Below are positions 1 to 27,375 of a stretch of DNA of 64,000 nucleotides, piece after piece (the stretch's first letter is position 1; the number at the start of each line of letters is the position of its first letter). The notes under the pieces were generated by a model. It did not search any database and was not told the DNA's origin. It saw nothing but the letters and a program-made list of their open reading frames with translations. The DNA comes from Haliotis rufescens. Taxonomy: Eukaryota. The stretch covers positions 614,355 to 678,354 of the forward strand of contig NW_025963802.1 in assembly GCF_023055435.1 (NCBI RefSeq), in the 5' to 3' direction. A program made the translations under genes and the position numbers.

Positions 1-3000
1 GAAGTGGGACAGAAGTGATGTGTGACAGAAGTGATGTGTGAACTGGGACAGACGTCATGTGTGAAGACCAGAAGTGATGTGTGAAGTGGGACAGAAGTGA
101 TGTGTGAAGTGGGCCCGATGTGATGTGTGAAGACCAGAAGTGATGTGTGAAGTGGGACAGACGTGATGTGTGAAGACCAGAAGTGATGTGTGAAGTGGGA
201 CAGAAGTGATGTGTCAAGTGGGACAGAAGTGAAGTGGGACAGAAGGGTTGTGTGATGTGGGACAGAAGTGATGTGTGAAGTGGGACAGAAATGTTGTGTG
301 AAGTGGGGCAGAAGTGAAGTGGGACAGAAGTGTTGTGTGAAGTGGGGCAGAAGTGATGTGTGAAGTGGGACAGAAGTGATGTGTGAAGTGGGACAGAAGT
401 GATGTGCGAAGTGGCTCAGAAGTGATGTGTGAAGTGGGACAGAAGTGATGTGTGACAGAAGGGTTGTGTGATGTGGGACAGAAGTGATGTGTGAAGTGGG
501 ACAGAAATGTTGTGTGAAGTGGGACAGAAGTGTTGTGTGAAGTGGGACAGAAGTGAAGTGTGAAGTGGGACAGAAGTGTTGTGTGAAGTGGGACAGAAGT
601 GTTGTGTGAAGTGGGACAGAAGTGATGTGTGAAGTGGGACAGAAGTGATGTGTGACAGAAGTGATGTGTGAACTGGGACAGACGTCATGTGTGAAGACCA
701 GAAGTGATGTGTGAAGTGGGACAGAAGTGATGTGTGAAGTGGGCCCGATGTGATGTGTGAAGACCAGAAGTGATGTGTGAAGTGGGACAGACGTGATGTG
801 TGAAGACCAGAAGTGATCTGTGAAGTGGGACAGAAGTGATGTGTCAAGTGGGACAGAAGTGAAGTGGGACAGAAGGGTTGTGTGATGTGGGACAGAAGTG
901 ATGTGTGAAGTGGGACAGAAATGTTGTGTGAAGTGGGGCAGAAGTGAAGTGGGACAGAAGTGTTGTGTGAAGTGGGGCAGAAGTGATGTGTGAAGTGGGA
1001 CAGAAGTGTTGTGTGAAGTGGGACAGAAGTGATGTGTGAAGTGGGACAGAAGTGATGTGCGAAGTGGCTCAGAAGTGATGTGTGAAGTGGGACAGAAGTG
1101 ATGTGTGAAGTGGGACAGATGTGTTGTGTGAAGTGGGACAGAAGTGATGTGTGAAGTAGGACAGAAGTGATGTGTGAAGTGGGACAGAAGCGATGTGTGA
1201 AGTGGGACAGAAGTTTTGTGTGAAGTGGGACAGAAGTGATGTGTGAAGTGGGACAGAAGTGATGTGTGAAGTGGGACGGAAATGTTGTGTGAAGACCAGA
1301 AGTGTTGTGTGAAGACCAGAAAAGATGTGTCAAGTGGGACAGAAGTGATGTGTGAAGTGGGAGAGAAGTGTTGTGTGAAGTGGGACAGAAAGGATGTGTG
1401 AAGTGGGACAGAAGTGATGTGTGAAGTGGGACAGAAGTGATGTGTGAAGTGGGACAGAAGTGATGTGTCAAGTGGGACAGAAGTGTTGTGTGAAGTGGGA
1501 CAGAAAGGATGTGTGAAGTGGGACAGAAGTGTTGTGTGAAGTGGGACAGAAGTGATGTGTGAAGTGGGACAGAAGTGATGTGTGAAGTGGGACAGAAGTG
1601 AAGTGGGACAGAAGTGATGTATGAAGTGGGACAGAAGTGTTGTGTGAAGTGGGACAGAAGTGAAGTGGGACAGAAGTGATGTGTGAAGTTGGACAGAAGT
1701 GATGTGTGATGTGGGACAGAAGTGTTGTGTGAAGTGGGACAGAAGTGATGTGTGAAGACCAGAAGTGATGGGTGAAGTGGGACAGAAGTGATGGGTGAAG
1801 TGGGACAGACGTGATGTGTGAAGTGGGACAGAAGTGTTGTGTGAAGTGGGACAGAAGTGATGTGTGAAGTGGGACAGAAGTGATGTGTGAAGTGGGACAG
1901 AAGTGTTGTGTGAAGTGGGCCCGATGTGCTTGTGAAGACCAGAAGTGATGTGTGAAGTGGGACAGAAGTGATGTGTGAAGTGGGACAGACGTGATGTGTG
2001 AAGTGGGACAGAAGTGATGTGTGAAGTGGGAGAGAAGTGTTGTGTGAAGTGGGCCCGATGTGCTGGTGAAGACCAGAAGTGATGTGTGAAGTGGGACAGA
2101 AGTGATGTGTGAAGTGGGACAGACGTGATGTGTGAAGTGGGAGAGAAGTGATGTGTGAAGTGGGACAGAAGTGTTGTGTGAAGTGGGCCCAATGTGCTGG
2201 TGAAGACCAGAAGTGATGTGTGAAGTGGAACAGAAGTGAAGTGTGAAGTGGGACAGAAGTGATGTGTGAAGTGGGACAGAAGTGTTGTGTGAAGTGGGAC
2301 AGAAGTGTTGTGTGAAGTGGGACAGAAGTGTTGTGTGAACTGGGACAGAAGTGATGTGTGAAGACCAGAAGTGATGTGTGAAGTGGGACAGAAGTGATGT
2401 GTGAAGTGGGACAGAAGTGTTGTGTGAAGTGGGCCCGATGTGCTTGTGAAGACCAGAAGTGATGTGTGAAGTGGGACAGAAGTGATGTGTGAAGTGGGAC
2501 AGAAGTGATGTGTGAAGTGGGACAGAAGTGATGTGTGAAGTGGGACAGAAGTGTTGTGTGAAGTGGGACAGAAGTGATGTGTGAAGTGGGACAGAAGTGA
2601 TGTGTGAAGTGGGACAGACGTGATGTGTGAAGTGGGACAGAAGTGATGTGTGAACTGGGACAGACGTGATGTGTGAACTGGGACAGACGTGATGTGTGAA
2701 GTGGGAAAGAAGTGAAGTGTGAAGTGGGACAGAAGTGAAGTGTGAAGTGGGACAGAAGTGATGTGTGAAGTGGGACAGAAGTGATGTGTGAAGTGGGACA
2801 GAAGTGTTGTGTGAAATGGGACAGAATTGATGTGTGAACTGGGACAGACGTGATGTGTGAAGTGGGACAGAAGTGATGTGTGAAGACCAGAAGTGATGTG
2901 TGAACTGGGACAGACGTGATGTGTGAAGACCAGAAGTGATGTGTGAAGTGGGACAAAAGTGTTGTGTGAAGTGGGCCCGATGTGCTTGTGAAGACCAGAA

Positions 3001-6000
3001 GTGATGTGTGAAGTGGGACAGAAGTGATGTGTGAAGTGGGACAGAAGTGATGTGTGAAGTGGGACAGAATTGATGTGTGAAGTGGGACAGAAGTGATGTG
3101 TGAAGTAGGACAGAAGTGATGTGTGAAGTGGGACAGAAGTGATGTGTGAAGTGGGACAGAATTGATGTGTGAAGTGGGACAGAAGTGATGTGTGAAGTGG
3201 GACAGAATTGATGTGTGAAGTGGGACAGAAGTGATGTGTGAAGTGGGACAGAAGTGATGTGTGAAGTGGGACAGAATTGATGTGTGAAGTGGGACAGAAG
3301 TGATGTGTGAAGTAGGACAGAAGTGATGTGTGAAGTGGGACAGAAGTGATGTGTGAAGTGGGACAGAATTGATGTGTGAAGTGGGACAGAAGTGATGTGT
3401 GAAGTGGGACAGAATTGATGTGTGAAGTGGGACAGAAGTGATGTGTGAAGTGGGACAGAATTGATGTGTGAAGTGGGACAGAATTGATGTGTGAAGTGGG
3501 ACAGAAGTGATGTGTGAAGTGGGACAGAAGTGATGTGTGAAGTGGGACAGAAGTGATGTGTGAACTGGGACAGACGTGATGTGTGAAGTGGGACAGAAGT
3601 GTTGTGTGAAGTGGGACAGAAGTGATGTGTGACAGAAGGGTTGTGTGATGTGGGACAGAAGTGATGTGTGAAGTGGGACAGAAATGTTGTGTGAAGTGGG
3701 ACAGAAGTGTTGTGTGAAGTGGGACAGAAGTGATGTGTGAAGTGGGACAGAAGTGTTGTGTGAAGTGGGACAGAAGTGTTGTGTGAAGTGGGACAGAAGT
3801 GATGTGTGACAGAAGTGATGTGTGAACTGGGACAGACGTCATGTGTGAAGACCAGAAGTGATGTGTGAAGTGGGACAGAAGTGATGTGTGAAGTGGGCCC
3901 GATGTGATGTGTGAAGACCAGAAGTGATGTGTGAAGTGGGACAGACGTGATGTGTGAAGACCAGAAGTGATGTGTGAAGTGGGACAGAAGTGATGTGTCA
4001 AGTGGGACAGAAGTGAAGTGGGACAGAAGGGTTGTGTGATGTGGGACAGAAGTGATGTGTGAAGTGGGACAGAAATGTTGTGTGAAGTGGGGCAGAAGTG
4101 AAGTGGGACAGAAGTGTTGTGTGAAGTGGGGCAGAAGTGATGTGTGAAGTGGGACAGAAGTGATGTGTGAAGTGGGACAGAAGTGATGTGCGAAGTGGCT
4201 CAGAAGTGATGTGTGAAGTGGGACAGAAGTGATGTGTGACAGAAGGGTTGTGTGATGTGGGACAGAAGTGATGTGTGAAGTGGGACAGAAATGTTGTGTG
4301 AAGTGGGACAGAAGTGTTGTGTGAAGTGGGACAGAAGTGAAGTGTGAAGTGGGACAGAAGTGTTGTGTGAAGTGGGACAGAAGTGTTGTGTGAAGTGGGA
4401 CAGAAGTGATGTGTGAAGTGGGACAGAAGTGATGTGTGACAGAAGTGATGTGTGAACTGGGACAGACGTCATGTGTGAAGACCAGAAGTGATGTGTGAAG
4501 TGGGACAGAAGTGATGTGTGAAGTGGGCCCGATGTGATGTGTGAAGACCAGAAGTGATGTGTGAAGTGGGACAGACGTGATGTGTGAAGACCAGAAGTGA
4601 TCTGTGAAGTGGGACAGAAGTGATGTGTCAAGTGGGACAGAAGTGAAGTGGGACAGAAGGGTTGTGTGATGTGGGACAGAAGTGATGTGTGAAGTGGGAC
4701 AGAAATGTTGTGTGAAGTGGGGCAGAAGTGAAGTGGGACAGAAGTGTTGTGTGAAGTGGGGCAGAAGTGATGTGTGAAGTGGGACAGAAGTGTTGTGTGA
4801 AGTGGGACAGAAGTGATGTGTGAAGTGGGACAGAAGTGATGTGCGAAGTGGCTCAGAAGTGATGTGTGAAGTGGGACAGAAGTGATGTGTGAAGTGGGAC
4901 AGATGTGTTGTGTGAAGTGGGACAGAAGTGATGTGTGAAGTAGGACAGAAGTGATGTGTGAAGTGGGACAGAAGCGATGTGTGAAGTGGGACAGAAGTTT
5001 TGTGTGAAGTGGGACAGAAGTGATGTGTGAAGTGGGACAGAAGTGATGTGTGAAGTGGGACGGAAATGTTGTGTGAAGACCAGAAGTGTTGTGTGAAGAC
5101 CAGAAAAGATGTGTCAAGTGGGACAGAAGTGATGTGTGAAGTGGGAGAGAAGTGTTGTGTGAAGTGGGACAGAAAGGATGTGTGAAGTGGGACAGAAGTG
5201 ATGTGTGAAGTGGGACAGAAGTGATGTGTGAAGTGGGACAGAAGTGATGTGTCAAGTGGGACAGAAGTGTTGTGTGAAGTGGGACAGAAAGGATGTGTGA
5301 AGTGGGACAGAAGTGTTGTGTGAAGTGGGACAGAAGTGATGTGTGAAGTGGGACAGAAGTGATGTGTGAAGTGGGACAGAAGTGAAGTGGGACAGAAGTG
5401 ATGTATGAAGTGGGACAGAAGTGTTGTGTGAAGTGGGACAGAAGTGAAGTGGGACAGAAGTGATGTGTGAAGTTGGACAGAAGTGATGTGTGATGTGGGA
5501 CAGAAGTGTTGTGTGAAGTGGGACAGAAGTGATGTGTGAAGACCAGAAGTGATGTGTGAAGTGGGACAGAAGTGATGGGTGAAGTGGGACAGACGTGATG
5601 TGTGAAGTGGGACAGAAGTGTTGTGTGAAGTGGGACAGAAGTGATGTGTGAAGTGGGACAGAAGTGATGTGTGAAGTGGGACAGAAGTGTTGTGTGAAGT
5701 GGGCCCGATGTGCTTGTGAAGACCAGAAGTGATGTGTGAAGTGGGACAGAAGTGATGTGTGAAGTGGGACAGACGTGATGTGTGAAGTGGGACAGAAGTG
5801 ATGTGTGAAGTGGGAGAGAAGTGTTGTGTGAAGTGGGCCCGATGTGCTGGTGAAGACCAGAAGTGATGTGTGAAGTGGGACAGAAGTGATGTGTGAAGTG
5901 GGACAGACGTGATGTGTGAAGTGGGAGAGAAGTGATGTGTGAAGTGGGACAGAAGTGTTGTGTGAAGTGGGCCCAATGTGCTGGTGAAGACCAGAAGTGA

Positions 6001-9000
6001 TGTGTGAAGTGGAACAGAAGTGAAGTGTGAAGTGGGACAGAAGTGATGTGTGAAGTGGGACAGAAGTGTTGTGTGAAGTGGGACAGAAGTGTTGTGTGAA
6101 GTGGGACAGAAGTGTTGTGTGAACTGGGACAGAAGTGATGTGTGAAGACCAGAAGTGATGTGTGAAGTGGGACAGAAGTGATGTGTGAAGTGGGACAGAA
6201 GTGTTGTGTGAAGTGGGCCCGATGTGCTTGTGAAGACCAGAAGTGATGTGTGAAGTGGGACAGAAGTGATGTGTGAAGTGGGACAGAAGTGATGTGTGAA
6301 GTGGGACAGAAGTGATGTGTGAAGTGGGACAGAAGTGTTGTGTGAAGTGGGACAGAAGTGATGTGTGAAGTGGGACAGAAGTGATGTGTGAAGTGGGACA
6401 GACGTGATGTGTGAAGTGGGACAGAAGTGATGTGTGAACTGGGACAGACGTGATGTGTGAACTGGGACAGACGTGATGTGTGAAGTGGGAAAGAAGTGAA
6501 GTGTGAAGTGGGACAGAAGTGAAGTGTGAAGTGGGACAGAAGTGATGTGTGAAGTGGGACAGAAGTGATGTGTGAAGTGGGACAGAAGTGTTGTGTGAAA
6601 TGGGACAGAATTGATGTGTGAACTGGGACAGACGTGATGTGTGAAGTGGGACAGAAGTGATGTGTGAAGACCAGAAGTGATGTGTGAACTGGGACAGACG
6701 TGATGTGTGAAGACCAGAAGTGATGTGTGAAGTGGGACAAAAGTGTTGTGTGAAGTGGGCCCGATGTGCTTGTGAAGACCAGAAGTGATGTGTGAAGTGG
6801 GACAGAAGTGATGTGTGAAGTGGGACAGAAGTGATGTGTGAAGTGGGACAGAATTGATGTGTGAAGTGGGACAGAAGTGATGTGTGAAGTAGGACAGAAG
6901 TGATGTGTGAAGTGGGACAGAAGTGATGTGTGAAGTGGGACAGAATTGATGTGTGAAGTGGGACAGAAGTGATGTGTGAAGTGGGACAGAATTGATGTGT
7001 GAAGTGGGACAGAAGTGATGTGTGAAGTGGGACATAAGTGATGTGTGAAGTGGGACAGAATTGATGTGTGAAGTGGGACAGAAGTGATGTGTGAAGTAGG
7101 ACAGAAGTGATGTGTGAAGTGGGACAGAAGTGATGTGTGAAGTGGGACAGAATTGATGTGTGAAGTGGGACAGAAGTGATGTGTGAAGTGGGACAGAAGT
7201 GATGTGTGAAGTGGGACAGAATTGATGTGTGAAGTGGGACAGAAGTGTTGTGTGAAGTGGGACAGAAGTGATGTGTGACAGAAGTGATGTGTGAACTGGG
7301 ACAGACGTCATGTGTGAAGACCAGAAGTGATGTGTGAAGTGGGACAGAAGTGATGTGTGAAGTGGGCCCGATGTGATGTGTGAAGACCAGAAGTGATGTG
7401 TGAAGTGGGACAGACGTGATGTGTGAAGACCAGAAGTGATGTGTGAAGTGGGACAGAAGTGATGTGTCAAGTGGGACAGAAGTGAAGTGGGACAGAAGGG
7501 TTGTGTGATGTGGGACAGAAGTGATGTGTGAAGTGGGACAGAAATGTTGTGTGAAGTGGGGCAGAAGTGAAGTGGGACAGAAGTGTTGAGTGAAGTGGGG
7601 CAGAAGTGATGTGTGAAGTGGGACAGAAGTGATGTGTGAAGTGGGACAGAAGTGATGTGCGAAGTGGCTCAGAAGTGATGTGTGAAGTGGGACAGAAGTG
7701 ATGTGTGACAGAAGGGTTGTGTGATGTGGGACAGAAGTGATGTGTGAAGTGGGACAGAAATGTTGTGTGAAGTGGGACAGAAGTGTTGTGTGAAGTGGGA
7801 CAGAAGTGAAGTGTGAAGTGGGACAGAAGTGTTGTGTGAAGTGGGACAGAAGTGTTGTGTGAAGTGGGACAGAAGTGATGTGTGAAGTGGGACAGAAGTG
7901 ATGTGTGACAGAAGTGATGTGTGAACTGGGACAGACGTCATGTGTTAAGACCAGAAGTGATGTGTGAAGTGGGACAGAAGTGATGTGTGAAGTGGGCCCG
8001 ATGTGATGTGTGAAGACCAGAAGTGATGTGTGAAGTGGGACAGACGTGATGTGTGAAGACCAGAAGTGATCTGTGAAGTGGGACAGAAGTGATGTGTCAA
8101 GTGGGACAGAAGTGAAGTGGGACAGAAGGGTTGTGTGATGTGGGACAGAAGTGATGTGTGAAGTGGGACAGAAATGTTGTGTGAAGTGGGGCAGCAGTGA
8201 AGTGGGACAGAAGTGTTGTGTGAAGTGGGGCAGAAGTGATGTGTGAAGTGGGACAGAAGTGTTGTGTGAAGTGGGACAGAAGTGATGTGTGAAGTGGCTC
8301 AGAAGTGATGTGTGAAGTGGGACAGAAGTGATGTGTGAAGTGGGACAGATGTGTTGTGTGAAGTGGGACAGAAGTGATGTGTGAAGTAGGACAGAAGTGA
8401 TGTGTGAAGTGGGACAGAAGCGATGTGTGAAGTGGGACAGAAGTTTTGTGTGAAGTGGGACAGAAGTGATGTGTGAAGTGGGACAGAAGTGATGTGTGAA
8501 GTGGGACGGAAATGTTGTGTGAAGACCAGAAGTGTTGTGTGAAGACCAGAAAAGATGTGTCAAGTGGGACAGAAGTGATGTGTGAAGTGGGAGAGAAGTG
8601 TTGTGTGAAGTGGGACAGAAATGATGTGTGAAGTGGGACAGAAGTGATGTGTGAAGTGGGACAGAAGTGATGTGTGAAGTGGGACAGAAGTGATGTGTCA
8701 AGTGGGACAGAAGTGTTGTGTGAAGTGGGACAGAAAGGATGTGTGAAGTGGGACAGAAGTGTTGTGTGAAGTGGGACAGAAGTGATGTGTGAAGTGGGAC
8801 AGAAGTGATGTGTGAAGTGGGACAGAAGTGAAGTGGGACAGAAGTGATGTATGAAGTGGGACAGAAGTGTTGTGTGAAGTGGGACAGAAGTGAAGTGGGA
8901 CAGAAGTGATGTGTGAAGTTGGACAGAAGTGATGTGTGAAGTGGGACAGAAGTGTTGTGTGAAGTGGGACAGAAGTGATGTGTGAAGACCAGAAGTGATG

Positions 9001-10210
9001 GGTGAAGTGGGACAGAAGTGATGGGTGAAGTGGGACAGACGTGATGTGTGAAGTGGGACAGAAGTGTTGTGTGAAGTGGGACAGAAGTGATGTGTGAAGT
9101 GGGACAGAAGTGATGTGTGAAGTGGGACAGAAGTGTTGTGTGAAGTGGGCCCGATGTGCTTGTGAAGACCAGAAGTGATGTGTGAAGTGGGACAGAAGTG
9201 ATGTGTGAAGTGGGACAGACGTGATGTGTGAAGTGGGACAGAAGTGATGTGTGAAGTGGGAGAGAAGTGTTGTGTGAAGTGGGCCCGATGTGCTGGTGAA
9301 GACCAGAAGTGATGTGTGAAGTGGGACAGAAGTGATGTGTGAAGTGGGACAGACGTGATGTGTGAAGTGGGAGAGAAGTGATGTGTGAAGTGGGACAGAA
9401 GTGTTGTGTGAAGTGGGCCCAATGTGCTGGTGAAGACCAGAAGTGATGTGTGAAGTGGAACAGAAGTGAAGTGTGAAGTGGGACAGAAGTGATGTGTGAA
9501 GTGGGACAGAAGTGTTGTGTGAAGTGGGACAGAAGTGTTGTGTGAAGTGGGACAGAAGTGTTGTGTGAACTGGGACAGAAGTGATGTGTGAAGACCAGAA
9601 GTGATGTGTGAAGTGGGACAGAAGTGATGTGTGAAGTGGGACAGAAGTGTTGTGTGAAGTGGGCCCGATGTGCTTGTGAAGACCAGAAGTGATGTGTGAA
9701 GTGGGACAGAAGTGATGTGTGAAGTGGGACAGAAGTGATGTGTGAAGTGGGACAGAAGTGATGTGTGAAGTGGGACAGAAGTGTTGTGTGAAGTGGGACA
9801 GAAGTGATGTGTGAAGTGGGACAGAAGTGATGTGTGAAGTGGGACAGAAGTGAAGTGGGACAGAAGTGTTGTGTGAAGTGGGACAGAAGTGTTGCGTGAA
9901 GTGGGACAGAAGTGATGTGTGAAGACCAGAAGTGATGTGTGAAGTGGGACAGAAGTGATGGGTGAAGTGGGACAGACGTGATGTGTGAAGTGGGACAGAA
10001 GTGATGTGTGAAGTGGGACAGACGTGATGTGTGAAGTGGGACAGAAGTGATGTGTGAAGTGGGACAGAAGTGTTGTGTGAAGTGGGTCCGATGTGCTTGT
10101 GAAGACCAGAAGTGATGTGTGAAGTGGGACAGAAATGATGTGTGAACTGGGACAGAAGTGTTGTGTGAAGTGGGACAGAAGTGATGTGTGAAGACCAGAA
10201 GTGATGTGTG
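1..10210. repeat. Tandem satellite with a 23-bp monomer (GTGAAGTGGGACAGAAGTGATGT). Variant monomers include GAAGACCAGAA (20 bp) and a 16-bp form, and the array is organised into a higher-order repeat of about 3.78 kb. It continues past the left edge of the window.
   Basis: Direct reading shows 23-bp periodicity across the whole interval. The identical 846-aa ORFs at 416..2956 and 4200..6740 give an exact 3784-bp offset. The block at 1-420 recurs at 644-1070, 3781 and 7261. The array ends abruptly at about 10210 into GA-rich sequence. Confidence 0.97.
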
Positions 10211-12086
10211 AAGAGAAAAAGATAGAAAGAGAAAGAGAAAGAAGGCTGTGTGACTCAGTTCAATGCATGTCCTGGCCTATCAATTGGTTAGATCAACCCT
10301 GGTGATGTCAATCATAGGATTGTCTTTACATTCTCAAAATACAGACCGCCATCATATTGCTGACTGCTGCACTAAACAACATTCAATCACTAACACACTC
10401 ATTTGACAATAATCCTGAAACAAACAAAGCCATGGTGGAAAAGAGATCAATTTATTTACTTCTTAATCTTTGTAAGGACAGCTCCAATTCACAAGTAGTG
10501 TTCTACAGCAGTAGAGCAGGATTACTGTGATACCAAAAAATTGAGGTGATACTGTTTCTAAAATGTTGACAAATGCCAAGATCCAACATAAGGTATTGTG
10601 GGGTCTCATACACTGAACCCTATATTCATGAAACCATTGTCAAAAGGAACATCACCGCAAGCAGTAGGTGAGTTCTCTCCCTTTGTCCACGTTCCTGACA
10701 GGCATCATGGTCTGCCTACTTGTGGTGAATAGGCCAAGGGGACTGACTGCAAATTTAAAAAATGTGACAGCATCTAATTCACAGGAACAATTGTCAGAAA
10801 TAGCACTGTGCCAAACTGAAATAGCCAACAAGGTCCAAACACTTTGTTCCTTGAAGAAATAATTCACTATTGATGAAAATTCTTAAAATAATTCATCTTT
10901 TTTTCTAACGAAGGCAGAACCTGACATATTCACAGACTTGTGACAGGCTACCTTTAAACCATGAAACTTTTTTATTTACCTGTCCACTCTAATTTTGATG
11001 GATAAGAAAAGTTTCAAGGACAAATGCAAGAACATGTTAACTCAATTTTGTTACAATAACGGTTCAAATGCATAGTATACCTGTTATCTCAGGCAAAGGC
11101 AAACACAACACATTCAATACAAGCCTTTCTCGGCGATAATTGAACACCTGTAATGGTAGAGATAAACACAGGTTTATCCACTACCATGTTTACCTGATCA
11201 ACACATACAATGTCATACAAACACACACACACAATATTTTGACCAACCCATGCCACCTGTTCATAAAAACTTCTGTAAATCATACATTATTTTTTAAATC
11301 CCAGACTGTAGACTGTACTGCCACCTTTTTCATGAACACTTTCAGTTATATTTAGCACTATAACTTAAGGAAACCCTAAAACAACATCCCCCCCTGATCT
11401 TGACAGCAGGAATCTCATGAACCCAATATACAGCCAAGGCACTAACAGGCAAGCAGACTTCCCCCAGATGCAAAAGCCTGAGTTCAGAGCTCCAGATAAG
11501 CTGCGTATCTGCGTGAAATACGCATCAGAAATGCAGAAATACACAGTAAAATATAATCCAAGCATATCAAATATGCAACGAACATTACAGATATGCTACA
11601 AAAATAAAACTTGTGCGTATCATCAAAATATTGTGAAATAACCCTGTGTATTCGATTAGCAAACCAGCAACTTATTTTGAAATTATAAACGGGCATTCCG
11701 TCAACCTTGCCAAACTCCACGATGACAGTTACATCATGATCATTTGCCATCACACTTTCTTGTGGAAGTATCGTGGTATTTTTGAGTCCTATAAAGCTCT
11801 CGAACCCCCACGACACCAGTTTGCAGGGACTAGATGAATAGTGTTTTTAAATATTTAACTTAAATACCCACATGTGTAAAAACTAGTGGGTAACAGAAAT
11901 TTGAATACGCAGATAGAATTACTGATACCCAATGATTTTAAAATGCATGGGTAAAATACCCACAACACCAAAAGCTTATCTGGAGCTCTGTGAGTTAAAT
12001 GCAAATCATGTTATCACATGTTATTTGGTGATAATGTCTGATAATGTGTGGTGATTATGTCTCATAATGTCTGGTGCTTTCACCAA

Positions 12087-12873
12087 TCACTGCCGCCTGA
12101 TCCGGCGCCTCTGTACACCATTGTAAGGTTGGTACCGACAACGGTTGAAGTCCACATGCCGAGCCGTTTGTTCGAAGTTGTTGTTGCTGTACGGCTGCCA
12201 CTGGAAGTTGTCCCTGGATCCAAGGTCTGTCGCATAGCTGTTGTCCTCCATGCTGCGGCTGTACCCACAATCGTTTCTCAGCTTCCTGTTGGTGTCCATT
12301 ATCTGTCTGTTCAGAGTGCCGCGGTTGATGTTCATGGGGTTGATGTCCTTCAACATACGGTTCACGTCAAGATTGAGTGGGCGACGTTGGGACCGAAGAC
12401 CTTGTTCCTGCCTGTTCAAAGCTCTGGAAGGAATGGTGTTACTTCCAAATCGGAATACCTCTGGGTTCTTTTCCTGGTTTTTCTGGACGTTACCAGGGAG
12501 AAGAAAGCCCCAGGCATCCGAGATGTGAGTAAGCAGCAGGTTGGTCATACGCCGGTGAGCCGTCATGTCCCAGTGTATGCCATCATCGGCACGACGGTGA
12601 AGCTGATAACGCAGGAAGTAATGCAGGTCAAGGACATCGAAGTCGTTTTCAACCACGACCTTGGCTGCATAATAGTTGGCTTCCAGGATGTCCAAACGCA
12701 GAGTGGAGTTCATGAATTCAATCTCAGGAATAATGAAACCTCCCCTAGCATTCTTTGAAATGGGAAGTGTGGTGTTCCAGATGACCAGACAGTCAGCAGG
12801 CAGCACCTCCTTGAACCGCCGGAACAGGGTCTTCAGGTTCTCTTTGTATTCATCGATTGCTCTCACACCATAC
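12087..12873 (-). CDS. PCED1-like terminal exon. Encodes (R)YGVRAIDEYKENLK...DGIHWDMTAHRRMTNLLLTHISDAWG... through to the stop codon.
   Basis: The acceptor is ctgttgcag|GTATGGTGTGAGAGCAATC. The ORF 12087..12866 continues in frame to a TGA at 12087-12089. The sequence DGIHW...HRR resembles the SGNH block V region, and the C-terminal part is low-complexity. Confidence 0.8.
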
Positions 12874-13196
12874 CTGCAACAGAGAAATGTAGGAACTAAC
12901 TAACAACATATATCTGCTCACAATCACTGAACAGCTCATTGCCACCTGGAGATTCACAAAAAAAGAATTTATTCAAGAGAATATCCTGAGCTGACGTTGA
13001 TGCCAATTTCATGTTCAGCTGTGATATCATGATGAGTTAGAAATCTGGGAAGGTCTTGACAATAAACACTAGTATTTCAATAACATGAAGGTATTTGGGG
13101 GGTTTTATCACCTAGATTAAATTTAATCTAAAATCTTTAAATTTAAATGTGTGTGTGTGTGTGTGTCAAACCCCATGATAACCTATGAGTTAAACC

Positions 13197-13765: not shown

Positions 13766-15003
13766 ATGCTGTATAATGCTGCATAATGCTGTATAATGCT
13801 GTATAATGCTGTATAATGCTGCATAATGCTGTATAATGCTGTATAACGCTGTATAACGCTGTATAATGCTGTATAATGCTGTATAATGTTGCATAACGCT
13901 GTATAATGCTGTATAATGCTGTATAATGCTGTATAATGTTGTATAATGCTGTATAATGCTGTATAATGTTGCATAACGCTGTATAATGTTGCATAACGCT
14001 GTATAATGCTGTATAATGCTGTATAATGCTGTATAATGTTGTATAATGCTGTATAATGCTGTATAATGTTGTATAATGCTGTATAATGCTGTATAATGTT
14101 GCATAACGCTGTATAATGCTGTATAATGCTGTATAATGTTGTATAATGCTGTATAATGTTGCATAACGCTGTATAATGCTGTATAATGCTGTATAATGCT
14201 GTATAATGTTGTATAATGCTGTATAATGCTGTATAATGTTGCATAACGCTGTATAATGCTGTATAATGCTGTATAATGCGGTATAATGCTGTATAATGCT
14301 GTATAATGCTGTATAATGCTGTATAATGTTGTATAATGCTGTATAATGCTGTATAATGTTGTATAACGCTGTATAATGCTGTATAATGCTGTATAATGCT
14401 GTATAATGCGGTATAATGCTGTATAATGCTGTATAATGCTGTATAATGCGGTATAATGTTGTATAATGCTGTATAATGCTGTATAATGCTGTATAATGCT
14501 GTATAATGCGGTATAATGTTGTATAATGCTGTATAATGCTGTATAATGCTGTATAATGCTGTATAATGCGGTATAATGTTGTATAATGCTGTATAATGCT
14601 GTATAATGCTGTATAATGCTGTATAATGCTGTATAATGCGGTATAATGTTGTATAATGCTGTATAATGCTGTATAATGCTGTATAATGCTGTATAATGCG
14701 GTATAATGTTGTATAATGCTGTATAATGCTGTATAATGCTGTATAATGCTGTATAATGCGGTATAATGTTGTATAATGCTGTATAATGCTGTATAATGTT
14801 GTATAATGCTGTATAATGCTGTATAATGTTGTATAACGCTGTATAATGCTGTATAATGCTGTATAATGCTGTATAATGCTGTATAATGCGGTATAATGCT
14901 GTATAATGCTGTATAATGCTGTATAATGCTGTATAATGCTGTATAATGCTGTATAATGCGGTATAATGCTGTATAATGCTGTATAATGCTGTATAATGCT
15001 GCA
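13766..15003. repeat. 10-bp tandem array (GCTGTATAAT)n of about 120 copies. Variant units are GTTGTATAAT, GCGGTATAAT and GTTGCATAAC. There is a local higher-order repeat of 60-70 bp.
   Basis: Direct reading. The ORFs at 13714..15114 and others in this interval are periodic artefacts. Confidence 0.95.
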
Positions 15004-17790: not shown

Positions 17791-17809
17791 CCGGTTTGAG
17801 AAGGTATAC

Positions 17810-18042
17810 CTGCTGATATCCCACAGACAGGAGTTGAGAATAACAACATCAGGCCTTGGTTCATCACTCAAGTCGGCGAGGATGCTCTCCATGTAAGCGT
17901 TGTAGCAGCGGCAGACGAAGTAGAAACGGATGAGGTTGTAGTCAGACAGGTACTGTCGCACCTCACGGTAGTTGGTGCCATTAGACATCTTGCCCTTCTT
18001 GCCTCCTTCGATCAGCTCATCCTTCTCAAAGGTCATCTCACC
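17810..18042 (-). CDS. PCED1-like exon 3. Encodes [77 protein letters not shown](R).
   Basis: The acceptor is ttgatgcag|GGTGAGATG and the donor is ATCAGCAG|gtatac. The exon is 233 bp, leaving 2 bases that join the G of exon 4 to make Arg. It lies inside the ORF 17680..18051. Confidence 0.8.
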
Positions 18043-18602
18043 CTGCATCAAGGTGAGAGGTGAAAGGTCAGAAGCAAAAAACAGGAAAACTTGTCAAAGA
18101 AGAAATAAGTATCGGTATGTTTGAGGTCAGTTGATATTTCATGTCAAAGTAGCTGCTTTTATCATTTTACATTTCAAAACTTTATTCCTTCATGAAGCTG
18201 TGCTTGTTTCGCAACACTTGTGTAAACTTTTATTGCTATTTATTATCCCTTGCTTCTCAATGGTAGAGTGAGTGAGTGAATTGGGTTTAACCCAACAGTA
18301 TTCCAGTTACCGTATTCGACGTAATAAGTGCCCCGCTCTAATAAGCGCCCAAGGCGATATTTGCTAATATATTGGCTCGTGAACAATCCCAATTAGCACC
18401 CTTTCCGATTTATCAATGTACACAATACTTATTTATTCACGTATAATACGCACCCTTAATTATGGGCAATTAAATTCTGGAAAAATATATCTCTCGTATA
18501 TAAACATTTCAGGCTGTCAGCATAAACCACAAAATTTATCTTTCAACTCTGTTATTTTTCCGACAAAATAATATTCTAATAAGATCCCCCTATTTCTAAT
18601 TT

Positions 18603-19574: not shown

Positions 19575-20442
19575 ACCTGTATATTTTGAGTTAGTGAGTT
19601 GCGTTTAACGCGGCTTTTAACAGTATTCCAGTTATATCGCGGCGTGTCAGCTTAATGTGGGAGGAAAACACGAAGTGATGCAGGTCTCAGACGTTGACCC
19701 TATATATTTTGTTTTGGTAAAACGAAATGCGGGAGCAATGTGAAATACATTCAAAATCAGGTTCTCTTCTTTTGACGAGAGTATTCGATAAAACAACTGA
19801 TGGTGTAAACTACATAATGACGGAAATTATATTAGGGGACGGGTTTTAACGACCCACTGGAGATCTCGTTGTACCACAAATAGATAGATAGAGTGAGTAA
19901 GGTTTAACGCTGCTTTTAACAGTATTCCAGTTATATCGCGGCGTGTCAGCTGAATGTGGGAGGAAAGCACGAAGTGATGCAGGTCTCAGACGTTGACCCT
20001 ATATATTTTGTTTTGGTAAAACGAAATGCGGGAGCAATGTGAAACACATTCAAAATCAGGTTCTCTTCTTTTGATGAGAGTATTCGATAAAACAACTGAT
20101 GGTGTAAACTACATAATGATGGAAATTATATAAGGGGACGGGTTTTAACGACCCACTGGAGATCTTGTACCACAAATAGATAGATAGAGTGAGTAAGGTT
20201 TAACGCTGCTTTTAACAGTATTCCAGTTATATCACAGCGTGTCAGCTTAATGTGGGAGGAAAGCACAAAGTGATGGTCTCAGATGATTACCACTTGGGTG
20301 AAACCCATGAGCACGGGTATGGTGCTGACAAACCTAGAAACATAATCGGGGCGAACCAGGATTCGAACCCACAATCATAGGTTTCTGGCGTGCCCAAGGG
20401 ATGCAACTCTTGCCTTAGACGACTGGGCCACCCGTGCCCCCT
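19575..20442. repeat. Tandem triplication of about 306 bp. Each unit contains a SINE family B tail fragment plus about 190 bp of unique sequence.
   Basis: The blocks 19587-19892, 19893-20198 and 20199-20442 align base for base (gagtgagtaaggtttaacgctgcttttaacagtattccagttatatc...gttgaccctatatattttgttttggtaaaacgaaatgcgggagcaatgtgaaa...). Confidence 0.85.
20199..20442 (-). mobile_element. SINE family B copy with an internal deletion. It forms the last unit of the 306-bp tandem triplication.
   Basis: Sequence identity. Confidence 0.7.
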
Positions 20443-21160
20443 GTACCTGTATATAACAGATACCACAATACTATGTAGCACAAACAGCAACTGCTCACAC
20501 TTTAAAATCATATGATAGTGTTTTTCTTTCAGTCGTTTGTTATAGTTATATGATGTTTGGTTAACTTTCAGGCTGACCCTAATTATTTTCATACATTATG
20601 AGGAAATGGAAAATTTAATATTAAATTTGGAATTTTTACTCTCATGGTTGCAGCAGACTATTTGCATCTGAGCCGGCCTAGATGTCATAACGATCCCTTG
20701 ACTTCCATGCTTAGTTTCGAACACTGGATTAACTGTACTGTTTGTATCTTTGTTACTTAATGCCACACTAAGCAATATCCCAGCTGTATAAAAGCAGCTT
20801 CTAAATAATCAAGTCTGGACCAGACAATTCAGTGATCCAATATTGTGAGCAATGACCATGCCATTTGGGAACAATGGCCATAGGCGATTCCAGGGGGGGG
20901 GGGGGGGGGTCTAGTGGGTCCTGACCCTTTTGAAAACCAAATGCAATATGTTGCAAGGCTGAAAAATTATATGTGGGATGTTTTTGATATTTTAGACCCT
21001 CCCTTTTAAAAATGCTGGATCTGCCCAAGTCACAGAGTCAGACCAGACAATCCATTGAGTCACCTCATACTACCAGCATGGGGTCCTAACCGTCCTATAG
21101 GGAGCCATTCTAACCGAGCATCCCCAATGGGTATGTAAAGTATGGTACTGCAGTGGTTAC

Positions 21161-21240
21161 CTTGTTGCGGAGGTTGCCATCAGTCAAGTATCTGTTCTTC
21201 TGGAGCAGCAACACCACATCCTTGTACACAGCTCGCTGGA
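21161..21240 (-). CDS. PCED1-like exon 2. Encodes (I)[26 protein letters not shown].
   Basis: The acceptor is ...cctccag|TCCAGCGAGCT and the donor is CAACAAG|gtaacc on the minus strand. Phase is consistent with exon 1 (1 base) and exon 3 (phase 0). The motif [15 protein letters not shown] is characteristic of the PCED1 family, recalled from memory. Confidence 0.75.
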
Positions 21241-21295
21241 CTGGAGGTACAATTAGCATGGGCATTACAGTCAAGCTGGATTTAATACATCTTCC

Positions 21296-21850
21296 CGAGA
21301 CAAGGGCATTTACTGACTATGAAAGTGCAGTTCTCACGCTTGCAGAACGAGGCTGGAATTTCATGGTTCGATCGAAGCACCACCAGTGGCTTTTATGAAT
21401 TATGTCCCTTCTATGTCCCTCCTACTGACAAATCAGATTCCATCTCTCATATCACTTGCATTTGGTTCAAACAAAATGGCAATGCCCAGTCAAGATGATC
21501 TGATCCATGATCAAGATCTATGTTGTAATAAAACAGGTCTTACCCCACGAAGTGCATCAAGTCACTTTAGCCTCTGGATTAAAAACATGTAAAGATGTGC
21601 AAAATATAATGCTGACACCCCGTTGACAGTACACATGCTTTGCAAATGCTGCAGTCAACCGAAATCTGCACATTGAAATCCATGATGTTTACAAACCGGA
21701 TGTCTTGTTTGTTAGCGATTTTGATTGGAGTATGGATAGACTTGATAATCCAGCTAAAATGTAACTCCAGGATTCTAGCCTTGTTCGACAAGGTTCGAAA
21801 CTGGACTTAAATAGTCCGTTAACGCCCTTGCCTCAGGAAGAGGAGTTTAA
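21296..21850 (+). mobile_element. The same MITE-like family, copy 2, in the opposite orientation. It lies in intron 1 of the PCED1-like gene.
   Basis: The internal 94-aa and 68-aa ORFs of the two copies are homologous (NKMAVPSQDDLIDNQDLYCNKTGL versus NKMAMPSQDDLIHDQDLCCNKTGL). The right terminal inverted repeat at 21770-21850 matches copy 1, and the left repeat is diverged. Confidence 0.55.
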
Positions 21851-22036
21851 GATTCATCCTCGTTCAGGGACTTTCACCTGAATTGGGTCCTGAGATCCTT
21901 CTTGTCTTCTCTAAAGGAAATATGAATTGAAAGAGGCCCAAAGTATCTTTGAACTATTAACAAGAGGGTTATGACGATGACCCCTCGACTTTCATGCTAT
22001 ATTTGGAACACTTACTACTACATAGGTACAGCGTCA

Positions 22037-22192
22037 GAAACTAACAGTTTCAGTCCACTTGTCCTCAAAATGATAACATAGCAAAACCCTTAAAAATGGC
22101 ATATTTCTACCAGTCCTTATGATACCTTAGCTACTGGGCAGTTTGGCAGGGACTGTAGGACTAGTGCCAATTTCTAACACTGAAGTGGGTGG
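22037..22192. mobile_element. MITE-like repeat of about 155 bp, copy 3. It lies 11 bp downstream of the exon 1 donor of the PCED1-like gene.
   Basis: Sequence identity to the other two copies. Confidence 0.6.
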
Positions 22193-22202
22193 TGACACTT
22201 AC

Positions 22203-22278
22203 TTGAGTCACCAATGATGACCACAAACTTGTTGTACAGGAGTTTCTCCACATCCTGGCGAAAGAATATGTCCCCCAT
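22203..22278 (-). CDS. PC-esterase domain protein (PCED1/FAM113-like SGNH hydrolase), exon 1. Includes the start codon and encodes [25 protein letters not shown], which contains the GDS block I motif.
   Basis: The minus strand reads gccATGGGGGACATATTC...GGTGACTCAA followed by the donor gtaagt. VVIIGDS matches SGNH block I. The frame joins exon 2 to give [11 protein letters not shown]. Confidence 0.7.
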
Positions 22279-25200
22279 GGCAATCTGAAACCAATATCAT
22301 ATCATATCACATAGGATTATGCAGTTTGCAATTTTAGTCATAATTCTGAAACATATGGGTCTGGTATAAGTTCTCATGGCCTCATAATAACATAAACCTG
22401 ATTAACTTATGGAAAATACACATAATTCCTGCAATGCCAGGAGTCATACACAGATTAATAAAAATCCTTCTGAATCTCATTCAGTTTTGAAAAAAAGGCG
22501 TGAAAAAAAGACAAGATTTTATAACTGGCCCAAACTCAACGCATGGGCAAAATAAAATGTTTTCTGTGCAGACAAAAAGTGATCTGTTCATCGCCCAAAA
22601 TATACAGTACCAACCTGAAACTGCCACTGCTGAGTAGTCATATCCATCAACATGATACAAATAGCCTTAGAACAAAATATTCAACACGGATAGATACCAT
22701 TGGTCATATTCAATTAAATCTCATCTCTGACTAGTCGTAGGGAATATAGATCTACCGCCCAAAGTCTTTCCCCATGTTTATACGGTAAAGCGTAATATCA
22801 CGAGATTTGGGGGAAAACAACGTGTACCTCTTTCTCTACTTTAGTGACCTTGTGTAGCCCTGACAATCCTCTACAATTCCAAAAACTGTCGGACCCTAAA
22901 TATCAGTCATAAAGATGACGACGTGTAACAATATGTCAGGTAGTCGGAGGTCTTTAGGAACCTAACATTTCTGACAAACGACTCTGTGAGCTCAAGATAT
23001 AAGGCAACAGCAGCCTGAACAATCGTGTAAGCTAACCAAATTAGACCTTCCCTCTTCTGTCGTCTGCAATAGATCAATGACATTATTTTTGGAACGGGGC
23101 AATTCAGTCTTGACTGCAAATGTTCCAAACACAAATGCTGTCAACATGTCAGGGTAGCCTATGGAAGCATGCCGAGTTTGAAGTTTCATTGAAGTTTACT
23201 TTGATCTGTCACAACTGGTGTTGTATCAGTGACAACAGCAATTAAGACATTCGGCACACAGACAAACTTCAACGGCTGGACCATTCACACCTACAACGCT
23301 CTCACCTTTATTTCATATGATGTCACTCGGTTGTTCGTGAGATACGCAAGTCTTTTCGAAGAGGCTTTGAATATAACCTTGGACCAGTCCATTTAGACGG
23401 TAGGGAGCGTGCGATGGGGAGTGTCACCTGTCACTTATTTTGGATATCTATTCTATGTCGAACGTTGAAAAGTGGTGTGTAAGTTAAACCTTACACATGT
23501 GCATATCAAATAACTGCTTAAAAGTTTGTTTTATCAAACTAACATGACCAGTCTTGTGTTTTCATGATTTGGCATAATGTGGACTATTCCATTTTTGCAT
23601 CGCACCCGGAATATCAGTTGCGGATGCCTTTGGCGCGGAATCTGTGCGTTTGATTCTCATGCAGCAAAGATTAACAATTCTCACAGATAATGGAATTCAT
23701 TTATTAGTTTTAAAAATCAAAAGTTATTGGAAATAGATTATGTATTTAACAATGTAATGTAAGAACACCACGCTCTGGTTTGTGTGTAAAAATATTTCAA
23801 ATTATCTTCTCTTTTCCGACACAAGCATAGCTAGGTCTTATACTATTTGTAAGACGACGATAACATGTACTAAAACTGTTATTTTGGCTCTGCGTGATGA
23901 AAAAAATAATAACAGAATTCATATGATTGATATCCAATTAGATCAGCACCAGCTAAGAACAGTGTTCGAAATAACTGCTTGCCCGCCTGCCCGTGGATGG
24001 TAACTTTTCTGTTGGGCTGCATGAAATTTTTTCCACCTGCCAGATAATTTTAAGACTATAACATATTCAGTTTTATTATAACTCCTCACATATTCTCAAG
24101 TAATTGTTTGCATTATTTCAACTGAATCACGATGCGATATATTTATTAGTATTCGAGATTTTTCAATATTTATAATGTCTGAATGCGGGCAGGTAACTTT
24201 GAAGACGGGCAGGCAACACTTATGGGTCTCTTGCCCTATGGTCTTGTTGGGTTTCAAAATTGGCTAAGAAAATAGATCTAAATTCAGCTATAGTAAGGGA
24301 GGTTTTCTATGTCCCAACTTTTGGCCGAATATGTGAAATCTTGTTGTGTCTTGAACGATATCCGTACCCGCCCCGTAACACAGAAAGCGGAATTGTGCTT
24401 GTCACAATATATGTAATAAACGCGGCTGTTTGTCATACAGGATTTGTTATTTACATGTTTGTTCTACTTTTTACAGATATGTACACACAAATAAGTTCAA
24501 ATAGTTGTACCGATGTTATAATTATAATAGGTCAGTGTGTGTCTGTTTTAATTATGCTTTTGAACTGTTTCCAGATATATATTTTTTTTTTCTTGTGTTT
24601 ATATACTAATGTGTTATAATATTCTATAATGTATATGGTCAGCATCTTTCATATACGAGTTAAGACTGTCACAAAGAACATATATGGCTTTTATTGAAAG
24701 CATAATAATTTTACATTCATTTTTTTCTGAATCCAGACCCCCATCTGCCACCAATCCCCCCGTCCCCCGTCCCCACCTACGACCTCAACCCCGCCCACCT
24801 TTCCCTCTCCCCCTCCTAAACAGATTATTCCCAGTCCCCGACTCCCCAACCCCAATGGCCTTGACTTGCAGCGCAAGGTGTGACGTTCTGATGACAACGT
24901 TTACCGCATCCAGGATTCCTGGTGTCAGACACCCCGGTGATTCTCACAACCGAGGGGTGATGGGAGCAGATACGAGATAACTAAGCCCCATAAATAACAG
25001 GATTGGACACAAACTAGACACGAGCTGGACACATCGGAGCAAGTCTCGTAAACAGACAGTCAAGAGCAATTTTGCTGTATAAACACATTGTAAGTGTCAA
25101 TCAAATTGGATTATCAGTGGCTGGGATGAGGGACTTCCCGTCTTCAGCCTCTTACTGTTTTACAAGCATGACTCTAAACAAGCAGCTCCGATCTTTCAAC

Positions 25201-27203: not shown

Positions 27204-27204
27204 T

Positions 27205-27235
<31 letters not shown>

Positions 27236-27375
27236 GGGGGGGGGTCGTACCTAACGTTTCGATCCATAGCTTGTGTCACCAGTGACATCATTGGAGAGGG
27301 CGGAGGGGTAATACTGATAAAGACAAGTATTGCGGGCGTGCATGCATGGGGGGGGGGGGGGGGGGGGGGGGGGGG
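27204..27375 (+). repeat. A (GT)n tract plus two homopolymer G runs (27219-27244 and 27348-27375) separated by about 100 bp.
   Basis: Direct reading. The poly-Pro and poly-Gly ORFs here are artefacts. Confidence 0.9.

What the first reader, a model, noticed from the sequence alone, without database searches (positions are those of the whole stretch)
1..10210. Open-ended satellite of at least 10 kb with a 23-bp monomer and a near-perfect higher-order repeat of about 3.78 kb
Higher-order copies are identical over more than 2.5 kb. The 846-aa artefact ORFs at 416 and 4200 translate identically. The third copy carries small deletions and a few SNPs. Monomer variants of 20 bp (GAAGACCAGAA) and 16 bp are placed at fixed positions in the higher-order repeat. 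Such homogenised higher-order repeats are typical of centromeric or pericentromeric satellites, or very young arrays. The array is truncated by the window edge, so it may be far larger. Its right boundary is sharp, running at 10210 into a GA-rich stretch and a diverged family D SINE.
Basis: seen in the sequence. Interest (0 to 1): 0.6.

Follow-up and report, generated by a model that had tools for sequence, protein, structure and literature searches.

The report
Recently expanded abalone 23-bp minisatellite
This is a real but ordinary non-coding 23-bp tandem repeat just downstream of an abalone gene, about 1.5 kb long in a sister species and grown to at least 10 kb here by very recent duplication of a 3.5-3.8 kb block; nothing found here points to a centromere.

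Summary
Window 1-10209 is one uninterrupted array of about 460 monomers (consensus GAAGTGGGACAGAAGTGATGTGT, G-rich strand). It is organised into 2.7 higher-order copies: 1-3784, 3785-7253 and 7254-9848. Copies 1 and 2 differ at 2 of 3414 bases. Copy 3 differs by 6 SNPs and one 23-bp deletion.

The window comes from an abalone (Haliotis, North Pacific clade). It is close to H. rufescens but is not H. cracherodii. The array is intergenic. It lies 1.9 kb past the stop codon, and about 240 bp past a conserved AATAAA, of a PC-esterase-domain (PCED1A-like) gene.

The orthologous site in H. cracherodii has the same gene-side junction. There the array is bounded on both sides, with 66 monomers (1.5 kb). 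H. rubra and H. asinina have no array at this site.

Between-copy divergence is 0.06-0.23%. The unique flank differs by 2.95% between species. The block duplications are therefore very young.

Best reading: a locus-specific minisatellite expanding by unequal exchange and slippage. "Young array" is supported. "Centromeric or pericentromeric" is not.

Three things could not be tested here: total array length (open at the window's left edge), genome-wide copy number, and read-level support for the assembly. Interest is low.

The parts
1..3784 (+). Higher-order copy 1 (170 monomers). It is cut by the window's left edge, so it may not be the first copy. It contains a nested 630-bp (29-monomer) duplication: 1-378 equals 631-1008 with 1 mismatch.
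3785..7253 (+). Higher-order copy 2 (156 monomers, 3469 bp). It matches copy 1 with 2 mismatches over its first 3414 bp. It lacks 315 bp that are present at the end of copy 1.
7254..9848 (+). Higher-order copy 3, partial (2595 bp). Against copy 2 it has one 23-bp deletion and 6 SNPs.
9849..10209 (+). Diverged terminal monomers at the edge of the array. They share only monomer-level similarity with the higher-order copies. The last unit is the 20-bp variant GAAGACCAGAAGTGATGTGT, as in H. cracherodii.
10210..10245 (+). GA-rich stretch GAAGAGAAAAAGATAGAAAGAGAAAGAGAAAGAAGG at the junction. It is conserved in H. cracherodii, and H. rubra keeps a short remnant (GATAGAGAAAGAG).
10246..10400 (+). Diverged, 5'-truncated copy of a SINE of about 180 bp that has at least 13 copies in the window. 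Its 5' side faces the array.
10451..10456 (-). AATAAA on the minus strand, inside a block invariant in four Haliotis species. It is the probable poly(A) signal of the PCED1A-like gene. This is inferred; there are no RNA data.
12087..12875 (-). Last coding exon, with stop codon, of a PC-esterase domain-containing protein 1A-like gene. Further exons lie at 17806-18045, 21161-21259, 22204-22284 and 23022-23147.

Best explanation
The feature is a non-coding, locus-specific minisatellite (a variable-number tandem repeat) in an abalone genome. It sits in the intergenic DNA just past the 3' end of a PCED1A-like gene. A short array of the same 23-bp unit already existed at this site in the common ancestor of this species and H. 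cracherodii. In the window's lineage it grew at least 6.8-fold.

Growth came from misaligned (unequal) exchange or repair between out-of-register repeats, acting at several scales:
- slippage-size events produced the 16-, 18-, 20-, 21- and 22-bp monomer variants;
- blocks of 207 and 630 bp were duplicated;
- most recently, a 156-170-monomer block of 3.5-3.8 kb was copied in tandem at least twice.

That last step created the near-perfect higher-order periodicity. The array edge next to the gene was left unhomogenised. No function is indicated, and the most likely status is a neutral, unstable repeat.

Shown: the structure, the orthology, the size difference between species, the relative youth of the block copies, and species-specific monomer variants. 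Inferred: the exchange and slippage mechanism, and neutrality.
For: - **Structure and significance:**
- **Host organism:** the nanos ORF is 96% identical to the H. asinina nanos-like protein. The PCED1A-like last exon (259-262 aa) is 100% identical to both the H. cracherodii and H. rufescens proteins; the other exons are closer to H. rufescens. H. cracherodii DNA is only 90-97% identical to the window, so the window is a different species.
- **Orthologous array in H. cracherodii:** locus L002 holds 66 monomers, about 1.5 kb, at about 21248-22770. It has the same consensus, the same 20-bp variant, and an identical gene-side junction including the GA-rich stretch and SINE fragment. It is bounded on the far side by degenerate monomers and then non-array sequence.
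- **Outgroups:** H. rubra and H. asinina have no 23-mer at <=3 mismatches within 10 kb downstream of the gene.
- **Concerted evolution:** the variant GATGAGT occurs 0 times here and 7 times in H. cracherodii. GAATTGATG occurs 16 times here and 0 there. Only 8 monomer types are shared, out of 56 here and 26 there.
- **Relative age:** block copies differ by 2/3414 and 6/2595. The unique flank differs by 55/1866 between species.
- **Local context:** other minisatellites in the same window also differ between species. The 10-bp x124 array at 13766-15001 is absent from all the orthologous loci.
- **Non-coding:** the array ORF has no Pfam match and no close homologue in either protein search. No gene is called over the orthologous array. 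The minus strand is open in all three frames only because the unit lacks TTA, CTA and TCA.
Against: - The window cuts the array on the left. Its full length and number of higher-order copies are unknown, and it could be much larger than 10 kb.
- Genome-wide abundance of the 23-mer could not be measured, because none of the DNA pattern-scan collections holds Haliotis genomes. A dispersed or large satellite family is therefore not excluded.
- No read-level check of the assembly was possible.
- Neutrality is assumed, not shown. About 400 copies of a GTGGGAC-containing unit next to a gene could bind something.
Confidence: 0.8

Rival explanations
1. One reading: this is the edge of a large centromeric or pericentromeric higher-order satellite that continues far beyond the window.
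For: There is genuine higher-order structure, with 99.8-99.9% identity between copies against about 93% between full-length monomers. The array is open at the window's left edge. The orthologous locus lies about 14% of the way along the chromosome-scale scaffold in H. cracherodii and in H. asinina, a position compatible with a subtelocentric centromere.
Against: - The orthologous array in H. cracherodii is 1.5 kb and bounded on both sides within gap-free sequence.
- The array is absent in H. rubra and H. asinina.
- A conserved gene ends 1.9 kb away, and the 54 kb to the right is ordinary gene- and SINE-bearing DNA.
- Only 2.7 copies are seen.
- The motif is not found elsewhere in about 170 kb of Haliotis sequence.
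- The only mollusc CenH3 study met here, reported second-hand in the oyster satellitome paper PMC8268682, found heterogeneous centromeric sequences with no centromere-specific repeat.
Confidence: 0.05
2. Assembly artefact: the block copies, or some of them, are false tandem duplications. For example, two haplotypes of a shorter array may have been stacked in series, or an assembler may have looped through a repeat.
For: Copies 1 and 2 differ by only 2 SNPs plus one 315-bp indel, which is about what two alleles might show. Repeats of this kind are error-prone. No reads are available here.
Against: - The three copies are distinguishable. Copy 3 has its own 6 SNPs, a 23-bp deletion and a different end.
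- The window has no N gaps.
- The same locus assembles cleanly in a PacBio HiFi assembly of a sister species, made from 15-20 kb reads at 37x.
- If the window's assembly was also built from reads of that length (its technology is unknown), single reads would span about 10 kb.
- The nested 630-bp duplication inside each copy shows that real multi-scale duplication happens at this locus.
Confidence: 0.08
3. The array is the internal tandem-repeat module of a mobile element. Candidates are the Helitron/Helentron or MITE type common in molluscs (microsatellite plus short satellite array between conserved boxes), or an outgrowth of the adjacent SINE.
For: A GA-rich microsatellite-like stretch and a SINE fragment directly adjoin the array. 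Oyster satellites are mostly found in this organisation (PMC8268682). A limpet satellite is reported to derive from a Nin-SINE (PMC11121367, title and abstract).
Against: - There is no second copy of the 23-mer in the window or in the four related loci.
- No repeated flanking boxes were found. The far flank in H. cracherodii is a different 89-bp repeat plus SINE copies.
- The SINE consensus contains nothing like the 23-mer.
- The array is fixed at one orthologous site in two species.
Confidence: 0.06
4. The long minus-strand ORFs encode a real repetitive protein with a 23-residue period (…HTSLLSHFTHHFCPTSHITSVPL…).
For: Open frames of up to 2066 codons on the minus strand.
Against: - All three frames are open merely because the unit lacks the reverse complements of the stop codons.
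- Unit lengths of 16, 18, 20, 21 and 22 bp shift the frame repeatedly.
- Usable ATG codons are scarce.
- There is no Pfam hit and no real homologue.
- No gene model lies over the orthologous array in annotated H. cracherodii.
- The exact ORFs are not in the protein collection.
Confidence: 0.01

Closest known systems
Classical hypervariable minisatellites (VNTR loci, Jeffreys type)
   Same: The unit is 10-100 bp. The array is a single locus of kb scale embedded in unique, gene-bearing DNA. There is strong G-rich/C-poor strand asymmetry: G 42%, C 6%, GC skew about 0.73. Variant repeats are interspersed. Length changes quickly between close relatives (1.5 kb versus at least 10.2 kb).
   Different: The human core GGGCAGGANG (as listed in PMC2408603) is absent, with 0 occurrences. 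The unit only resembles it (GGGACAGAAG). Population polymorphism and meiotic instability were not tested. A block duplication of 3.5-3.8 kb is, from my own knowledge, larger than usually described for minisatellites.
Higher-order-repeat satellites (e.g. primate alpha satellite)
   Same: Multi-monomer blocks repeat in tandem with 99.8-99.9% identity while monomers within a block diverge. The array edge is less homogenised than the interior.
   Different: The monomer is 23 bp, not nucleosome-sized. Only 2.7 block copies are visible. The array is adjacent to genes. The orthologue in a sister species is 1.5 kb. No centromere evidence exists.
Mollusc euchromatic short-array satellites (Crassostrea gigas satellitome; Patella PcH-Sat)
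   Same: These are tandem repeats in a mollusc genome lying in gene-bearing DNA next to a microsatellite-like stretch and a mobile-element fragment (PMC8268682; PMC11121367).
   Different: Those families are dispersed in many short arrays and are usually tied to Helitron boxes or derived from a SINE. Here only one locus is seen, with no boxes and no similarity between the unit and the SINE.

Membership tests
Minisatellite / VNTR locus | Tandem unit of about 10-100 bp forming an array of 0.5 to tens of kb | tested here: met
   The unit is 23 bp and the array is at least 10.2 kb. The orthologous array is 1.5 kb.
Minisatellite / VNTR locus | A single locus flanked by unique sequence, not a dispersed family | tested here: inconclusive
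   The right flank is unique and orthologous in two species. Both flanks are seen in H. cracherodii. No other copy exists in about 170 kb of Haliotis DNA. A whole-genome search was not possible.
Minisatellite / VNTR locus | Rapid change of repeat number between alleles or close relatives | tested here: met
   About 460 monomers here against 66 in H. cracherodii, and 0 in H. rubra and H. asinina. Within-species polymorphism was not tested.
Minisatellite / VNTR locus | Jeffreys core motif GGGCAGGANG | tested here: not met
   0 occurrences in either species' array. The motif is as listed in PMC2408603. The core defines a human subfamily, not minisatellites in general.
Centromeric higher-order-repeat satellite | Blocks of monomers repeated with much higher identity than monomers share with one another | tested here: met
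   99.8-99.9% between blocks, against a mean of 93% between 23-bp monomers, plus fixed-position length variants.
Centromeric higher-order-repeat satellite | A very long array (hundreds of kb or more) with many block copies | tested here: inconclusive
   Only 2.7 copies and 10.2 kb are visible, and the left end is cut by the window. The orthologue is 1.5 kb.
Centromeric higher-order-repeat satellite | Location in gene-poor (peri)centromeric chromatin | tested here: not met
   On the visible side, a conserved gene ends 1.9 kb away and a nanos gene lies 46 kb away. The orthologous locus is about 14% from a scaffold end.
Centromeric higher-order-repeat satellite | Association with CENP-A/CenH3 nucleosomes | not testable with these tools
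   This needs ChIP or CUT&Tag data.
Helitron/Helentron- or MITE-embedded tandem repeats of molluscs | An array preceded by a microsatellite and enclosed by conserved terminal boxes, present in many dispersed copies | tested here: inconclusive
   A GA-rich stretch adjoins the array. No shared boxes were found, and there is no second copy in the sequence available. The definition follows PMC8268682.

The most novel reading that the evidence does not exclude
The array may be a satellite caught at birth. An ancestral 1.5-kb minisatellite would have begun explosive block amplification in one abalone lineage. It may continue for tens or hundreds of kb to the left of the window. In that case it could act as a lineage-specific recombination or instability hotspot, as a sink for a factor recognising GTGGGAC-type sites, or conceivably as a new centromere-associated repeat.
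Probability: 0.06. Interest if true: 0.5.

Novelty: new member of a known kind. Interest (0 to 1): 0.2.

Why it matters
Mostly it does not matter much. It is a clean, datable example of how a small minisatellite turns into a higher-order array through nested block duplications, with an orthologous "before" state preserved in a sister species.

It has two practical uses. It could serve as a highly variable marker for abalone stock or species identification. It also flags a spot where the assembly should be checked against reads.

I found no published description of this 23-bp repeat. It is therefore probably undescribed, though of a familiar kind.

Tried and rejected
- **Rfam and tRNA scans.** Rfam at gathering thresholds found no RNA family in the whole window. 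ARAGORN found no tRNA-like SINE head.
- **Protein searches with the array ORF.** The word-indexed search gave no hit. Exact look-ups of nine window ORFs (six from the array, three from elsewhere) found none in the collection.
- **Exhaustive phmmer against 1.84 billion representatives.** All 204 hits were either compositional (LRR or low-complexity proteins at 17-28% identity) or artefact ORFs of unrelated repeats. These came from a haptophyte alga and an anonymous metagenome contig. None is the same satellite.
- **Other collections.** An exact 40-mer scan of metagenome contigs found nothing. A literature search for the 17-mer core, and for Haliotis satellites and minisatellites, found nothing relevant.
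- **Reaching the sequence left of the window.** This failed. The window's own assembly is not in the gene-position index, and H. rufescens XP_046343827 is not on record.
- **Species assignment.** I first took the window to be H. cracherodii, because its nanos protein is identical. DNA comparison rejected this at 90-97% identity.
- **A labelling error of mine.** The file /data/L002.fa also holds L003. Some BLAST rows that I first read as H. cracherodii are really H. asinina. An apparent duplicated exon, and a second orthologous site in H. rubra, were artefacts of this error.
- **Origin of the unit.** I tested whether it derives from the 89-bp repeat in the far flank of the H. cracherodii array, which shares the 11-mer GGACAGAAGTG. 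The result was not significant: 17 of 300 shuffles scored as well.
- **DNA structure.** Neither strand folds as single-stranded DNA (z about +0.8). There is no canonical G-quadruplex motif.
Full report

Yes. Tandem Repeats Finder reports one 23-bp array from 15 to 10213, with 459 copies, 84% matches and consensus GTGAAGTGGGACAGAAGTGATGT. Reading the sequence shows that the array begins at window base 1. The last complete monomer, a 20-bp variant, ends at 10209.

The + strand is strongly G-rich and C-poor: G 42%, C 6%, GC skew about 0.73. The skew collapses to about 0 right after 10.2 kb. The 23-mer matches 389 times at <=3 mismatches, against 0 expected. At <=4 mismatches it never matches outside the array, on either strand.

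A wrap-around alignment splits the array into 461 units of 56 sequence types:

| Unit length | Count |
|---|---|
| 23 bp | 355 |
| 20 bp (GAAGACCAGAAGTGATGTGT) | 51 |
| 16 bp | 19 |
| 22 bp | 15 |
| 21 bp | 10 |
| 18 bp | 10 |
| 4 bp (terminal GAAG fragment) | 1 |

**2. Higher-order structure**

Autocorrelation peaks at shifts of 3784, 3469/3446 and 7253/7230. At shift 3784, bases 1-3414 equal 3785-7198 with two mismatches. The exact runs are 1770 and 1479 bp.

- Copy 1 is 1-3784 (170 monomers).
- Copy 2 is 3785-7253 (156 monomers). It lacks 315 bp at its end.
- Copy 3 matches from 7254 to 9848, with one 23-bp deletion and 6 SNPs.
- Bases 9849-10209 are a diverged tail with only monomer-level similarity.

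Written as a string of monomer types, the order is obvious. The best type identity is 0.557 at a shift of 170 monomers, with a run of 80 identical types. The maximum over 200 shuffles of monomer order is 0.234. The 20- and 16-bp variants sit at the same places in each copy.

Smaller duplications are nested inside. One is a 630-bp, 29-monomer block at the start of each copy, where 1-378 equals 631-1008 with one mismatch. There are also 9-monomer sub-blocks. Full-length monomers within a copy are on average 93% identical. Copies are 99.8-99.9% identical.

They are artefacts. The unit lacks TTA, CTA and TCA, so all three minus-strand frames stay open for up to 2066 codons. Unit-length variants shift the frame repeatedly. 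There is no Pfam match.

**3. Where is it?**

The single-exon ORF at 56464-57351 (minus strand) is a nanos zinc-finger protein, 96% identical to the Haliotis asinina nanos-like protein. The ORF at 12087-12875 (minus strand) is the last exon of a PC-esterase domain-containing protein 1A-like gene. Four further exons lie upstream of it.

The exact nanos protein is encoded in the H. cracherodii assembly GCA_022045235.1 (identified in PMC9709981). However, that genome's DNA is only 90-97% identical to the window. The PCED1A-like exons are closer to, but not identical with, H. rufescens. The window is therefore another North Pacific abalone, close to H. rufescens.

The array ends 1.9 kb past the stop codon. 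It lies about 240 bp beyond an AATAAA that sits in a block invariant across four Haliotis species. That AATAAA is probably the gene's poly(A) signal, which is an inference.

Between that signal and the array lie a GA-rich stretch (10210-10245) and a diverged, 5'-truncated copy of a SINE of about 180 bp. The SINE has at least 13 other copies in the window.

**4. Comparison with relatives (the decisive evidence)**

The H. cracherodii locus (L002, scaffold JAJLRC010000009.1 at about 51.70 of 60.1 Mb) has the same junction, almost base for base. It has the terminal 20-bp variant, the GA-rich stretch and the SINE fragment. It carries the same repeat, but only 66 monomers, about 1.5 kb.

That array is bounded on the far side by degenerate monomers. 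Beyond them come unique sequence, a SINE and an 89-bp repeat, in a stretch without Ns.

H. rubra (L004) and H. asinina (L003) have no 23-mer at <=3 mismatches within 10 kb downstream of the gene. H. rubra keeps a short GA-rich remnant at the site.

The two arrays share the main monomer types but carry private variants. GATGAGT occurs 0 times here and 7 times in H. cracherodii. GAATTGATG occurs 16 times here and 0 there. The 16-bp units occur only here. This is the signature of concerted, lineage-specific turnover.

The unique 1.87-kb flank differs by 2.95% between the species. The block copies differ by 0.06% (copies 1 and 2) and 0.23% (copy 3). Without gene conversion, the block duplications would date to roughly the last 2-8% of the time since the species split.

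Other minisatellites nearby behave similarly. A 10-bp x124 array in a PCED1A-like intron is absent from all three other species.

**5. What it is and how it most likely works**

It is a locus-specific intergenic minisatellite. It pre-dates the split from H. cracherodii and has expanded at least 6.8-fold here, through out-of-register exchange or repair at several scales. The latest events were tandem copies of a 3.5-3.8-kb block.

The unhomogenised edge next to the gene fits the usual expectation that exchange is less effective at array ends. The 16-bp variant equals loss of 7 bp between GTGA...GTGA direct repeats, which is a slippage-type event read directly from the sequence.

No function is indicated:
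- Neither strand folds as single-stranded DNA.
- There is no canonical G-quadruplex motif, and the human minisatellite core is absent.
- No RNA family matches.

**6. Rivals**

A centromeric or pericentromeric satellite is not supported. The reasons are gene proximity, the small bounded orthologue, absence in two other species, and only 2.7 block copies. It cannot be excluded outright, because the left end is cut and centromere data do not exist.

A false tandem duplication in the assembly cannot be tested without reads. It is made less likely by the distinguishable copies and by the lack of gaps.

A mobile-element origin of the mollusc Helitron/MITE type (PMC8268682) is suggested only by the adjoining GA-rich stretch and SINE. 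No second copy and no terminal boxes were seen.

A coding repeat is effectively refuted.

**7. Novelty and score**

No paper in the searchable library mentions the motif or an abalone satellite like it. No related sequence was found in protein or metagenome collections. It is a new member of a well-known kind. The comparative "before and after" picture is neat but unsurprising. Interest is 0.2.

The main open points are the true array length, the genome-wide copy number, and read-level validation.

Noticed in passing
window 13766-15001: A 10-bp minisatellite (ATGCTGTATA x124, 92% matches) sits inside an intron of the PCED1A-like gene. Its dimer is absent from the orthologous loci of H. cracherodii, H. 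rubra and H. asinina. It is therefore another lineage-specific expansion.
   Followed up: partly
window, e.g. 32641-32821, 46920-47100, 60944-61123, 31209-31399(-), 42168-42352, 62994-63158(-), 48549-48688: An abundant SINE family of about 180 bp has at least 13 copies in 64 kb, and several more in the H. cracherodii and H. rubra loci. The consensus is given. Copies are often preceded by GTCGCCTTTTACG-type sequence. No tRNA-like head was detected by ARAGORN.
   Followed up: partly
window 56464-57351 (-): A single-exon nanos-like gene with a zf-nanos domain. The protein is identical to that of H. cracherodii and 96% identical to that of H. asinina.
   Followed up: yes
window 38762-40125; 46135-46832 and 47102-47288; 30585-31848; 34537-34900; 19603-20275; 58291-58583: The region is unusually rich in other tandem arrays: 55/56-bp x25, 31-bp x23, 22-bp x16-19, 31/61-bp x12, 299-bp x2.3, and a perfect 145-bp x2. 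Together they make roughly 11% of the non-array part of the window. The 22-bp array is also present in H. cracherodii at L002 2873-3890.
   Followed up: partly
window 47332-48174 (+) and 48774-50213 (+): Two long ORFs of 280 and 479 aa have no Pfam match and no exact entry in the protein collection. Their nature (exons of an unannotated gene, or chance) was not resolved.
   Followed up: partly
window 27219-27244 and 27348-27375: Two perfect poly-G runs of 26 and 28 bases lie about 100 bp apart.
   Followed up: no
L004 (H. rubra) 20449-21019 (-) and 26859-27454 (+): A small Gly/Tyr-rich gene (GGLYGG-type, with a 21-bp coding periodicity) and an inverted duplicate of it lie downstream of PCED1A-like in H. 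rubra. This is roughly where the window species has the array. No counterpart was found in the window or in H. cracherodii within reach.
   Followed up: partly
L002 (H. cracherodii) 23079-23301: An 89-bp tandem repeat (2.6 copies) lies in the far flank of the orthologous array. Its unit shares the 11-mer GGACAGAAGTG with the 23-bp monomer. The similarity is not significant against shuffles, 17 of 300 scoring as well.
   Followed up: yes
L005 (ENA metagenome contig ERZ16306134:k119_855898) 747-958: An unrelated contig carries 9 copies of a different 23-bp repeat (ATCACTTTCATCCAAACACACAC), about 70% similar to the abalone unit by hand alignment. It was found only because both give 23-residue-period artefact ORFs. 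The organism is unknown, and there is no evidence of common descent.
   Followed up: partly
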